Shown piece after piece: positions 8,817 to 10,582 of a stretch of DNA of 64,000 nucleotides (positions within the stretch are counted from its first letter, which is position 1; each line of letters begins with the position of its first letter). The stretch is from the NCBI RefSeq assembly GCF_024298765.1, contig NZ_CP101210.1; one strand, 5' to 3'. A program made the position numbers and the translations under genes. The notes beneath the pieces were generated by a model. It did no database searches and was not told where the DNA came from. It saw only the letters and a list, made by a program, of their open reading frames with translations. This stretch comes from Escherichia coli. Its GTDB lineage: Bacteria; Pseudomonadota; Gammaproteobacteria; Enterobacterales; Enterobacteriaceae.

Positions 8817-8992
8817 TTCCCCGAAGGCCGGGGCAGCCCACATGGATGTGGGCTGAGGGCGCGTCTTACAGGACATTACCTCGCGCCCGACCCGGTAGCC
8901 GAAGGGGATAAGCTGAAGGTACCGCGCAGCGGCGATTTTGTTCGCCAGAGCCCGGGGTGCAGGGGGTGGCGGCGATTGGCCGCCCCCTGCAC
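8817..8992. other. GC-rich intergenic element with several stable hairpins (possible dispersed repeat or structured RNA), unassigned
   Basis: Stem-loops AGCCCACAT-GG-ATGTGGGCT (8835-8854) and GGTGCAGGGGGTGGCGGC-GATT-GGCCGCCCCCTGCACC (8954-8992), plus CCCCGAAGGCCGGGG / CCCGGTAGCCGAAGGGG motifs; no convincing ORF. Confidence 0.4.
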
Positions 8993-9073
8993 CATTCAAT
9001 TTATATGGCGAGGCACATTAAGGGAGCGCAACCCGCTGCTGAAGCCAAACAAAACCGCCGCAGGCTAAGTCCC

Positions 9074-10582
<1,509 letters not shown>

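What the first reader, a model, noticed from the sequence alone, without database searches (positions are those of the whole stretch)
8817..8992. GC-rich multi-hairpin element between efeU and putP
About 175 bp of very GC-rich sequence with at least two long perfect stem-loops, one of them an 18-bp stem, and related CCCCGAAGGCCGGGG / CCCGGTAGCCGAAGGGG motifs. It does not match the REP consensus found elsewhere in the window and has no credible ORF. It could be a member of another dispersed repeat family, a structured small RNA, or an attenuator.
Basis: seen in the sequence. Interest (0 to 1): 0.4.

Follow-up and report, generated by a model that had tools for sequence, protein, structure and literature searches.

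The report
Decayed copy of structured dispersed repeat
The GC-rich hairpin cluster between efeU and putP is a damaged copy of an apparently undescribed repeat that is scattered through E. coli, Klebsiella and related bacteria, keeps an unusually well-conserved fold, and in some genera rides inside small IS4-type jumping elements; at this locus it does not appear to regulate anything.

Summary
It is the only copy in the window. It belongs to a dispersed repeat family found in Escherichia (median 3 places per genome, up to 9), Klebsiella (13 places in one chromosome), Kluyvera, Citrobacter and Pseudocitrobacter, with remote relatives in Rahnella. It matches no Rfam family and is not REP. The roughly 265-nt core has a conserved 68-pair fold: 47 pairs show compensatory changes once diverged members are included. 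Two hairpin loops almost always carry GGA. In Pseudocitrobacter, Kluyvera and metagenome contigs the core sits inside transposase-less units. These units are bounded by the 18-bp ends of IS4 (TAATGCYRGTCAGTTAAG), carry 10-13-bp target duplications and lie in terminator hairpins, so they are IS4-type MITEs. E. coli copies have no recognisable ends. They sit at three old loci and are variably deleted, inverted or absent. The window copy has an 11-nt deletion and two broken pairs. K-12 has a short form at this locus, and about a third of strains lack the element or have only a stub. I found no conserved promoter, ORF or leader position, so it is not an attenuator. What the fold does is unknown; CsrA binding is a low-probability guess.

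The parts
8780..9032 (+). Core of the repeat. It is the single copy in the window and is a full-length match to the family covariance model.
   Evidence: cmsearch with R1 gives 243.7 bits, E 4e-66, model positions 1-267. nhmmer places it at 8756-9055. It aligns with 29 other copies.
8795..8815 (+). 5' arm of the long closing helix (helices 1-2 of alignment A2). It pairs with 8912-8918 and 8933-8947.
   Evidence: RNAalifold and pair counts. Pairs 22/168, 26/163, 33/142, 36/139 and 37/138 show compensatory changes.
8834..8855 (+). Perfect 10-bp hairpin CAGCCCACAU-GG-AUGUGGGCUG. Its apical sequence is CAUGGAUG, with GGA at 8843-8845.
   Evidence: the repeat finder I2. In helix 6, three pairs covary in A2 and seven in A3. 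GGA is present in 28 of 28 family members.
8857..8888 (+). Second hairpin, GGGCGCG...CGCGCCC, with inner loop ACAGGACA. The inner closing pair is broken (C-A) in this copy.
   Evidence: Helices 7-8. The C-A mismatch at columns 93/100 occurs only in the window copy. The loop carries GGA in 27 of 28 members.
8912..8947 (+). 3' arms of the closing helices, plus the small hairpin 8922-8932 (CCGCGCAGCGG).
   Evidence: Helices 1, 2 and 9.
8956..8993 (+). GC-rich 3' hairpin with 15 pairs (one G-U) and loop GGCGAUUG. It is the most widely conserved module of the family.
   Evidence: the repeat finder I1. An exact 20-mer from it recovers the family in 34 genome loci. It is retained in the Rahnella and AwEntero relatives with a covarying stem. 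It scores as terminator-like only here, because the deletion brings a T-rich tail next to it.
8987..8988 (+). Junction of an 11-nt deletion (GCGCTCCCTGC, present in the K-12 allele and nearly all other copies). The deletion removes the 5' arm of the last helix and parts of the helices around the 3' hairpin.
   Evidence: Alignments. The missing pairs are listed. The same deletion occurs independently in L044, at another locus and in another species.
9024..9032 (+). GGGAGCGCAAC, the 3' arm of the last helix. It looks like a ribosome-binding site but covaries as a stem.
   Evidence: CTCCTT/AAGGAG in E. coli becomes CTCCCT/CGGGAG in Klebsiella. In helix 14 of A3, six of six pairs covary. The ORFs that follow it differ at every locus.
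9033..9060 (+). Weakly conserved 3' tail, CCGCUGCUGAAGCCAAAC... No IS4-type end is recognisable.
   Evidence: The tail is semi-conserved across copies. The apparent TIR-like match CCCTTAGCTTTCCTGCA at 9071-9087 is native putP sequence, because it is also present in the element-free haplotype.
8624..8660 (-). A separate REP-type palindrome in the same intergenic region. It is not part of the element.
   Evidence: Weak Rfam naRNA4 hit, 27 bits against a gathering score of 59.5.

Best explanation
The element is one old, damaged copy of a dispersed intergenic repeat of Enterobacterales. Its core of about 265 nt is a conserved multi-helix structured module. In lineages where the family is intact, this core is carried singly or as a head-to-head pair inside non-autonomous transposons (MITEs). 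These have the 18-bp terminal inverted repeats of IS4, make 10-13-bp target duplications and insert into terminator hairpins. The inferred mechanism is therefore mobilisation in trans by an IS4-subgroup transposase. In E. coli the copies have lost recognisable ends and sit at three ancient loci (putP-efeU, dusC-yohP, lysO-aqpZ). There they decay by recurrent microhomology deletions, replacement and inversion. The window copy is such a relic, with an 11-nt deletion and two broken pairs. It needs no locus-specific function to explain its presence.

Shown: dispersal, the conserved fold, IS4-type ends and duplications in other genera, and polymorphism and lesions at this locus. Inferred: that the E. 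coli copies descend from the end-bearing form, that an IS4-type transposase is the mobilising enzyme, and that the fold is maintained in active lineages because it acts at the RNA level. One possible RNA-level role is a compact fold that keeps the split terminator working.
For: - **Copy number and spread.** The element is multi-copy in E. coli, with a median of 3 places per genome and up to 9. An exact 20-mer recovers it in E. albertii, E. whittamii, Kluyvera (6-7 per genome, often at contig ends), Pseudocitrobacter and others. One K. pneumoniae chromosome has 13 places.
- **Genus-specific loci.** Insertion loci differ between genera, which argues for mobility rather than a vertically inherited gene.
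- **Conserved fold.** In A2, 99% of cells are paired and 14 pairs show double changes, against 0-3 in slid controls. With diverged members, 47 of 68 pairs show double changes, against 9-14 in slid controls.
- **IS4-type ends.** L046 has perfect 18-bp TIRs, TAATGCTGGTCAGTTAAG, flanked by a duplicated terminator loop. A metagenome scan found 20 loci, 9 with TIR pairs 63-660 bp apart and none with a transposase. Abutting duplications are 10-13 bp and lie in hairpin-plus-T-run targets. The 580-660-bp units contain a diverged core that still fits the model at 40-83 bits.
- **Match to IS4 itself.** IS4 of K-12 has ends TAATGCCAGTCAGTTAAG / CTTAACTGATCGGCATTA and a 12-bp duplication. The IS4 subgroup is defined by -AATR ends and 10-13-bp duplications (PMC2266710 Table 1).
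- **Head-to-head dimer.** The Kluyvera and Pseudocitrobacter unit is a head-to-head dimer of two cores.
- **Decay in E. coli.** The window copy has the lowest model score of the full-length copies built into the model, an 11-nt deletion and two mismatches. K-12 has a short form at this locus, and the same kind of short form occurs at lysO-aqpZ in another strain. Only 3561 of 5426 genomes have at least 80% of the window-type intergenic region. The others are element-free with a native terminator (L063) or retain only a stub of about 45 nt (L064, L065).
Against: - E. coli, Klebsiella and Citrobacter copies show no significant IS4-type ends or target duplications. Their descent from the end-bearing form is therefore inferred from the shared core only. 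The core could instead be an independent module that IS4-type MITEs captured.
- No autonomous IS carrying this cargo was found, and no plasmid or phage copy with these ends was found.
- The interior shares nothing with IS4 apart from the ends.
- The depth of covariation and the near-invariant GGA loops are more than most MITEs show. They suggest a selected function that this explanation leaves open.
- At putP-efeU and lysO-aqpZ, the haplotypes with and without the element (or with it in either orientation) differ by replacement of the whole spacer, not by a clean insertion.
Confidence: 0.6

Rival explanations
1. The core is a functional RNA module that binds the global regulator CsrA/RsmA. Two hairpins 29 nt apart present CANGGANG-type loops, which is the arrangement of a bidentate site for a CsrA dimer. 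Copies transcribed with neighbouring genes would then tie those transcripts to the Csr system, or would together titrate CsrA.
For: Loop 1 carries GGA in 28 of 28 members and loop 2 in 27 of 28, including the diverged subfamily and the second cores, while the closing pairs covary. The E. coli sequences CACAUGGAUGUG and UACAGGGAUGUU closely match the published SELEX consensus RUACARGGAUGU. That consensus is recalled from the literature and was not tested here. A further invariant GGA lies at the 3' end, and another occurs in most copies. There is a modest excess of G-U over A-C in helices on the + strand: 25 against 9 outside one weak helix.
Against: Overall GGA density is not enriched: 4-5 per copy, against about 6 expected from composition. 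In the K-12 CsrA CLIP/transcriptomics table, dusC and ybjE (lysO) are scored 'No' in every CLIP column (PMC5694010 supplement). There is no conserved promoter. The element occurs in both orientations relative to flanking genes. The window copy has the closing pair of loop 2 broken. The G-U excess is biased, because the model was built on the + strand.
Confidence: 0.12
2. It is a cis-acting 3'-end element of the neighbouring genes. As a structured block it would stabilise upstream mRNA, terminate or insulate transcription between convergent or tandem genes, or replace the native terminator.
For: Most copies lie just after gene ends, often between convergent genes. TIR-bounded members insert inside terminator hairpins. 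Element-bearing haplotypes at putP-efeU and at lysO-aqpZ (O157 type) lack the native terminator seen in the alternative haplotype. In the window copy the 3' hairpin plus a T-rich tail scores as terminator-like on the + strand.
Against: In the window that terminator-like site faces the wrong way for putP and efeU, which are both on the - strand. No - strand terminator is predicted within the element. In other copies the hairpin is not followed by a T run. The element occurs in either orientation at the same locus in different strains. Many strains do without it.
Confidence: 0.12
3. It is an independent small-RNA gene, or an attenuator or riboswitch controlling efeU or putP.
For: The structure is strong and conserved. 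Weak -35/-10-like hexamers can be read upstream of some E. coli copies.
Against: No promoter-like site is found in 8400-9150. The upstream 35-70 nt differ between E. coli, Klebsiella and Kluyvera copies. The element is downstream of putP and on the strand opposite to both genes. The element-free haplotype keeps a 219-nt efeU upstream region. No Rfam family matches.
Confidence: 0.04

Closest known systems
IS4 (E. coli K-12, insG) and the IS4 subgroup of the IS4 family
   Same: The end-bearing members of the family have 18-bp terminal inverted repeats that are identical or nearly identical to the IS4 ends. TAATGCCAGTCAGTTAAG occurs in L071, L075 and L081 and as the IS4 left end. Their 10-13-bp target duplications match the 12 bp of IS4 in K-12.
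   Different: They have no transposase gene. The interior is unrelated to IS4. The cargo is a conserved structured module. The E. coli copies, including the window copy, have no recognisable ends.
ERIC/IRU and other enterobacterial MITE-like intergenic repeats (RU-3, YPAL/RU-2) as reviewed in PMC3184786
   Same: They are short non-coding intergenic repeats of Enterobacteriaceae with a predicted secondary structure and presence/absence polymorphism between strains. They are probably co-transcribed with neighbouring genes.
   Different: There is no sequence similarity. The core here is longer (about 265 nt, in units of up to 660 bp). It is a branched multi-helix fold rather than a single imperfect palindrome. 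It has IS4-type ends with long duplications. It is not listed among the families in that review.
REP/BIME (PU) elements
   Same: They are GC-rich extragenic palindromes located after genes. In Klebsiella the family sits beside REP clusters, and a REP lies about 130 nt away in the window.
   Different: The sequence and size are different, and the element does not hit the REP-derived Rfam model. REPs are thought to be mobilised by RAYT (Y1) transposases, not DDE IS4-type enzymes (background knowledge).
CsrB/CsrC/RsmZ-type protein-sponge RNAs
   Same: They present GGA motifs in the loops of short hairpins.
   Different: Only two or three conserved sites are present, against 7-22 in the sponges. 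There is no dedicated promoter or terminator. The element is multi-copy and mobile. There is no binding evidence.
RSA repeat of E. coli K-12 (150/151 bp, 6 copies in the original GenBank annotation; PMC5172473 Table 1)
   Same: It is a little-characterised palindromic repeat of K-12. Its size is close to the 153-nt domain enclosed by the closing helix (8795-8947).
   Different: K-12 has only three loci of the present family, two full and one short. I could not obtain an RSA sequence, so identity is neither shown nor excluded.

Membership tests
MITE derived from the IS4 subgroup | Terminal inverted repeats matching IS4-subgroup ends (-AATR...) | tested here: not met
   Met at family level: L046, L027, L068, L073, L074, L085 and the small units L066, L069, L071, L075, L081. 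Not met for the window copy or any other E. coli copy: local alignment scores of 5-9 are not significant, and the best match is native putP sequence.
MITE derived from the IS4 subgroup | Target-site duplication of 10-13 bp | tested here: not met
   Family level: abutting repeats of 10, 11, 12, 13 and 13 bp in L081, L071, L068, L073 and L046. No duplication is detectable around the window copy or the other E. coli copies.
MITE derived from the IS4 subgroup | No transposase gene; small size; multiple dispersed copies | tested here: met
   No conserved ORF. The core is about 265 nt and the units are 63-660 bp. Copies are dispersed in many genomes.
MITE derived from the IS4 subgroup | Mobilisation in trans by the cognate transposase | not testable with these tools
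   This needs a transposition assay. No autonomous partner carrying the cargo was found.
REP/BIME | The 35-40-nt PU palindrome consensus | tested here: not met
   The only REP-like match is at 8624-8660. Nothing within 8780-9032 matches.
Any Rfam 15 RNA family | Covariance-model match at or near the gathering score | tested here: not met
   The best hits over the element are Pxr (17.9 bits against 80), Chloroflexi-1 (15.4 against 80) and BjrC80 (15 against 80), all with E > 2.
Independent bacterial sRNA gene | Own promoter and intrinsic terminator, conserved with the RNA | tested here: not met
   No promoter-like site. The upstream sequence is not conserved between genera. The terminator-like tail exists only in the window copy and results from the 11-nt deletion.
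Transcription attenuator / riboswitch | Located in the 5' leader of the regulated gene, on the same strand, with a conserved gene association | tested here: not met
   It lies after the putP stop and upstream of the efeU promoter region, with the favoured strand opposite to both genes. The flanking genes differ at every locus. The element is dispensable at this locus.
Conserved structured RNA (generic) | Base pairs maintained by compensatory substitutions | tested here: met
   14 of 68 pairs in A2 and 47 of 68 in A3 have double changes, with 97.6-99% of cells paired, far above the shuffled and slid controls. Watson-Crick covariation cannot tell RNA from single-stranded DNA, or one strand from the other. 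G-U against A-C is 25 to 9 outside one weak helix, a modest and model-biased preference for the + strand.
CsrA/RsmA-binding RNA | GGA in hairpin loops (A(N)GGA), in at least two sites suitably spaced | tested here: met
   Loops at A3 columns 76-80 and 107-112 carry GGA in 28 of 28 and 27 of 28 members. They are 29 nt apart in the window (8843 and 8872).
CsrA/RsmA-binding RNA | Demonstrated binding of CsrA | tested here: inconclusive
   The published K-12 table scores dusC and ybjE as 'No' in the CLIP columns. However, expression of the element is unknown, and the intergenic copies are not listed as such.
RSA repeat (K-12) | Sequence identity to the annotated 150/151-bp RSA copies | not testable with these tools
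   Only the length and copy number were retrievable. The local K-12 record carries no RSA features in the regions read.

The most novel reading that the evidence does not exclude
The core is a mobile, functional RNA module rather than junk cargo. Its 68-pair fold displays two near-invariant A(N)GGA hairpin loops as a bidentate CsrA/RsmA site. IS4-type MITEs would then spread a ready-made post-transcriptional control element, or a distributed CsrA sponge, into the 3' ends of genes across Enterobacterales. The E. coli copies would be its fossils.
Probability: 0.1. Interest if true: 0.8.

Novelty: new member of a known kind. Interest (0 to 1): 0.5.

Why it matters
At this locus the result is deflationary. 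The hairpin cluster is a decaying repeat, not a regulator of proline or iron transport.

The family behind it is worth noting for three reasons:
- A branched structure of about 265 nt, with 47 of 68 base pairs supported by compensatory change, is present in E. coli K-12 and in 13 places in one K. pneumoniae chromosome. It is absent from Rfam and from the repeat surveys I could read.
- It links a conserved structured module to IS4-type MITEs that target terminator hairpins. This gives a concrete, testable case for asking why a selfish element would maintain an elaborate fold.
- The family creates spacer polymorphism (inversions, deletions, replacements, contig breaks) that matters for annotation, assembly and strain typing in Enterobacteriaceae.

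Tried and rejected
- **Rfam.** A permissive scan found no family for the element.
- **Other copies in the window.** BLAST and the covariance model found none.
- **Phage origin.** There was no match in 50,697 phage records. The one IMG/VR hit is a prophage remnant fused to the dusC-yohP copy, not a phage-borne element.
- **Plasmid-borne or autonomous IS with these ends.** None was found. Most of the 'plasmid' hits I inspected are chromosome-sized or carry chromosomal genes.
- **Reading AAGGAG-N9-ATG at the 3' end as a ribosome-binding site plus start codon.** Rejected, because AAGGAG covaries as a helix arm and the downstream ORFs differ at every locus.
- **Tn3-type interpretation (GGGG...TAAG ends, 5-bp duplication) of the Pseudocitrobacter unit.** Rejected once more copies showed abutting 10-13-bp duplications and identity to the IS4 ends.
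- **Degenerate right end overlapping the putP stop (CCCTTAGCTTTCCTGCA).** Rejected, because the element-free haplotype has the same putP end.
- **Simple in-place inversion between flanking inverted repeats as the cause of the orientation polymorphism.** The flanks do not align in inverted orientation (p = 0.6-0.9). The model in which alternate halves of a dimer are lost has only one marginal match (p about 0.02).
- **Interior derived from IS4.** No similarity beyond the ends.
- **RSA = a small IS4-type MITE in E. coli.** The 155-bp L066-type unit has no match in 5426 E. coli genomes.
- **Group II intron, retron, omega-RNA or bridge-RNA readings.** I considered these from memory and dropped them. 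No reverse transcriptase, TnpB, IscB or recombinase gene lay next to the copies whose flanks were inspected, and there were no Rfam intron or HEARO hits.
- **Literature searches.** Searches for the sequences and for prior descriptions found nothing.

Full report
**Setting.** The window is E. coli. efeU is the ORF at 7590..8429 (-) and putP is the ORF at 9074..10582 (-). Strain 104 matches 8300-9200 at 100% identity and has those two genes annotated there. The finding lies in the 644-nt spacer between them.

**Observation.** The described features exist.
- Region 8817-8992 is 68% GC. The window as a whole is 52% GC and the rest of the spacer is 39%.
- A perfect 10-bp hairpin lies at 8834-8855 and a strong hairpin at 8956-8993.
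- The two quoted motifs are at 8819-8833 and 8891-8907.
- The longest stem has 15 pairs including one G-T, not 18 perfect pairs.
- The + strand of 8785-9035 folds with z = -5.7 and the - strand with z = -4.65, relative to dinucleotide shuffles.
- The unit is larger than reported. Homology with other copies runs from about 8756 to 9055 by HMM and 8780-9032 by covariance model.

**It is a dispersed repeat.**
- A 221-nt query hits 5425 of 5426 complete E. coli genomes, with a median of 3 places per genome and a maximum of 8-9.
- K-12 carries a full copy between dusC and yohP (92.9% identical) and a full copy between lysO and aqpZ. At putP-efeU it has a short form that lacks about 125 internal nucleotides.
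- An exact 20-mer from the 3' hairpin recovers the family in E. albertii, E. whittamii, cryptic Escherichia clades, Kluyvera, Pseudocitrobacter and a Klebsiella MAG. Kluyvera has 6-7 hits per genome, many at contig ends, as expected for a repeat that breaks assemblies. Hairpin-only relatives occur in Rahnella and an unnamed enterobacterium.
- BLAST against records filed as plasmids adds K. pneumoniae (13 places in a 5.37-Mb record filed as a plasmid), K. aerogenes, K. variicola and Citrobacter freundii.
- The flanking genes are genus-specific. Klebsiella copies lie at ABC-F/GH31, mscS/pcaC (a tandem pair), csdE/moeB-like (annotated moeB_1) and ybhB/proY. Citrobacter has a head-to-head pair at yeiP/torD. 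Kluyvera copies lie next to a TonB-dependent receptor and cytochrome b561, and between a LysR regulator and a sugar transferase. Within Escherichia the three loci are shared between species. This pattern indicates mobility in the past rather than a vertically inherited gene.
- The window holds exactly one copy.

**It is not a known RNA or REP.** A permissive Rfam 15 scan gives nothing above 18 bits over the element (E > 2). The only REP-like hit is a separate palindrome at 8624-8660. Phage records have no match. Searches of the paper library for the sequences, and for a described repeat at these loci, found nothing. The K-12 'RSA' repeat (150/151 bp, six copies; PMC5172473) is similar in size to the 153-nt domain closed by the long helix. 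However, K-12 has only three loci of this family and I could not obtain an RSA sequence. That lead stays open.

**The core has a conserved fold.**
- Thirty copies from four genera align over 278 columns. RNAalifold predicts 68 pairs in 13 helices. A long irregular closing helix (window 8795-8832 with 8891-8947) encloses two hairpins (8834-8855, 8857-8888). It is followed by a small side hairpin (8922-8932), the GC-rich 3' hairpin (8956-8993) and a terminal helix (8988-8993 with 9024-9030).
- On that alignment 99% of cells are paired and 14 pairs carry compensatory double changes, against 0-3 when partners are slid by 1-3 columns.
- A covariance model built from it finds strongly diverged members in metagenome contigs and inside the Kluyvera and Pseudocitrobacter units. 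In the resulting 28-sequence alignment, 47 of 68 pairs have double changes, against 9-14 in slid controls, and 97.6% of cells are paired. That alignment is fitted to the model, which inflates the percentage paired. The number of covarying pairs and pair types is still far above both controls.
- Watson-Crick covariation does not identify the strand or the molecule. G-U against A-C is 25 to 9 outside one weak helix, a modest preference for the + strand that is biased by the way the model was built.
- The AAGGAG near the 3' end looks like a ribosome-binding site. It is in fact a helix arm: CTCCTT/AAGGAG in E. coli becomes CTCCCT/CGGGAG in Klebsiella. The ORFs that follow differ at each locus.

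**How the family moves.**
- In Pseudocitrobacter the core lies in a unit of about 630 bp bounded by perfect 18-bp inverted repeats, TAATGCTGGTCAGTTAAG. The unit sits inside a terminator hairpin whose loop and inner stem are duplicated on both sides.
- A metagenome scan for this end returned 20 loci. Nine have a second inverted end 63-660 bp away and none contains a transposase. Abutting direct repeats are 10, 11, 12 and 13 bp, and the reconstructed targets are hairpins followed by T runs. The 580-660-bp units carry a diverged core that still fits the model at 40-83 bits.
- These ends are those of IS4. The K-12 copy (insG) begins TAATGCCAGTCAGTTAAG, ends CTTAACTGATCGGCATTA and is flanked by a 12-bp duplication. 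The first of these ends is identical to ends seen in L071, L075 and L081. The IS4 subgroup is characterised by -AATR ends and 10-13-bp duplications (PMC2266710 Table 1). Nothing but the ends is shared with IS4.
- The covariance search also shows that the '5' module' of the Kluyvera and Pseudocitrobacter unit is a second, diverged core in inverted orientation. That unit is therefore a head-to-head dimer with an IS4-type end beyond each 3' tail. Head-to-head pairs also occur in Citrobacter and in one Escherichia-like contig.
- I infer that the family is, or was, mobilised in trans by an IS4-subgroup transposase.
- The inference does not extend directly to the window. E. coli, Klebsiella and Citrobacter copies have no significant ends or duplications, and the best apparent end in the window is native putP sequence. 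Either these copies are eroded descendants, or the core is an older module that IS4-type MITEs captured.

**State of the copy in the window.**
- Compared with intact E. coli copies (291-312 bits), the window copy scores 243.7 bits.
- It lacks 11 nt (GCGCTCCCTGC) at 8987/8988. This removes the 5' arm of the terminal helix and part of the helices around the 3' hairpin. It also has a C-A mismatch closing the second GGA loop and an A-C mismatch in the terminal helix.
- The same 11-nt deletion occurs independently at another locus in another Escherichia species. Short forms like that of K-12 recur at lysO-aqpZ in strain CUVET18-565. Both deletions lie between short direct repeats, so slippage is the likely cause.
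- At putP-efeU, 3561 of 5426 genomes have at least 80% of the window-type spacer, in full or short form. The rest fall into two groups. One has an element-free 219-nt spacer with a normal putP terminator (L063). The other keeps only the first 45 nt or so of the element, followed by foreign DNA (L064, L065).
- No sigma-70-like promoter is predicted in 8400-9150. The only terminator-like site in the element is the 3' hairpin on the + strand. It scores only because the deletion places a T-rich tail next to it.
- The element is downstream of putP, upstream of the efeU promoter region and on the opposite strand. It is therefore not an attenuator for either gene.

**Unresolved points.**
- At dusC-yohP (1998 genomes against the K-12 type) and at lysO-aqpZ (O157 against K-12), the core is present in opposite orientations at 92-95% identity. 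The 45-75 nt on either side do not align significantly either way. Loss of alternate halves of an ancestral head-to-head dimer is a plausible route but is not shown.
- The reason for the conserved fold is unknown. Two hairpin loops carry A(N)GGA in 28 of 28 and 27 of 28 members while their closing pairs covary. In E. coli they read CACAUGGAUGUG and UACAGGGAUGUU, close to the CsrA SELEX consensus as I recall it. Overall GGA density is not enriched. The published K-12 CsrA table scores dusC and ybjE as unbound. I keep CsrA binding as a low-probability reading.
- A second possibility, by inference only, follows from the insertion sites. Because these MITEs insert in terminators and would be transcribed from the upstream gene, a compact fold closed by long helices might keep the split terminator working.

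**Verdict.** The finding is a real element, correctly suspected to be a repeat. At this locus it is an ordinary, decaying relic with no sign of regulatory function. The family it belongs to is a new member of a known kind (MITE-like intergenic repeats). It is notable for an unusually deep, well-supported secondary structure, for its link to IS4-type ends, and for being unannotated in the best-studied bacterium.

Noticed in passing
window 8624-8660 (-): A REP/PU-type palindrome (weak naRNA4 hit, 27 bits) lies about 130 nt from the element. In Klebsiella loci the family also sits beside REP clusters (L055-L058).
   Followed up: partly
window 7590-8429 (-): efeU is an intact 279-codon ORF in this strain, whereas K-12 efeU is annotated as a pseudogene (L001).
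   Followed up: no
L009 about 3270 (IMG/VR UViG_2681813004_000019): A lambdoid prophage remnant (integrase fragment, AntA, Ea22/DUF551, DUF2737) is fused directly to the middle of the dusC-yohP copy (...ggta|AACCCGGTAGCC). This is a deletion joint or an insertion inside the repeat.
   Followed up: partly
L064 1796-1876 and L065 1790-1875 (E. coli strains 319 and 2021CK-01784): At efeU-putP only the first 45 nt or so of the element remain. More than 1 kb of AT-rich foreign DNA and a 1344-nt hypothetical gene follow. This is an island junction inside the repeat.
   Followed up: partly
L052 2076-2341 versus L002 3969-4235; L053 804-1068 versus L051 1121-1386: The core is present in opposite orientations at the same two loci in different E. 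coli lineages, at 92-95% identity. The adjacent spacers cannot be aligned, and the last codons of dusC differ between the alleles.
   Followed up: partly
L022 6137-6203; L036 after about 213; L047 about 1510-1560: Short tandem repeats abut family members. A 35-nt repeat lies between the two Kluyvera cores, (GACAAA)n follows one Kluyvera copy, and (TTGAAG)n follows the Rahnella/AwEntero relatives, with different copy numbers at different loci.
   Followed up: no
L046 5618-5876 (+), L027 2166-2429 (+), L022 5879-6136 (-), L035 791-1047 (-): A second, strongly diverged core (73-89 bits) lies in inverted orientation inside the Kluyvera and Pseudocitrobacter unit. That unit is therefore a head-to-head dimer between IS4-type ends.
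   Followed up: yes
L069 9249-9316, L071 4563-4643, L075 3606-3816, L081 1703-1935, L066 1460-1614: A wider set of very small (68-233 bp) transposase-less elements has IS4-type ends and unrelated interiors. They lie in terminator hairpins of metagenome contigs. The 155-bp type has no match in 5426 E. coli genomes.
   Followed up: partly
L055 1027-1336 and 1465-1773; L059 859-1109 (-) and 1177-1445 (+): Klebsiella has a tandem pair of copies and Citrobacter a head-to-head pair of copies within single intergenic regions.
   Followed up: no
L043 (583-nt contig labelled Bacillus sp.) and L026 (MAG labelled Proteobacteria): These contigs carry E. coli-type copies with E. coli flanks. They are probably contamination or chimeric assembly. 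L043 joins an aqpZ-type 5' flank to a putP-type 3' flank.
   Followed up: no
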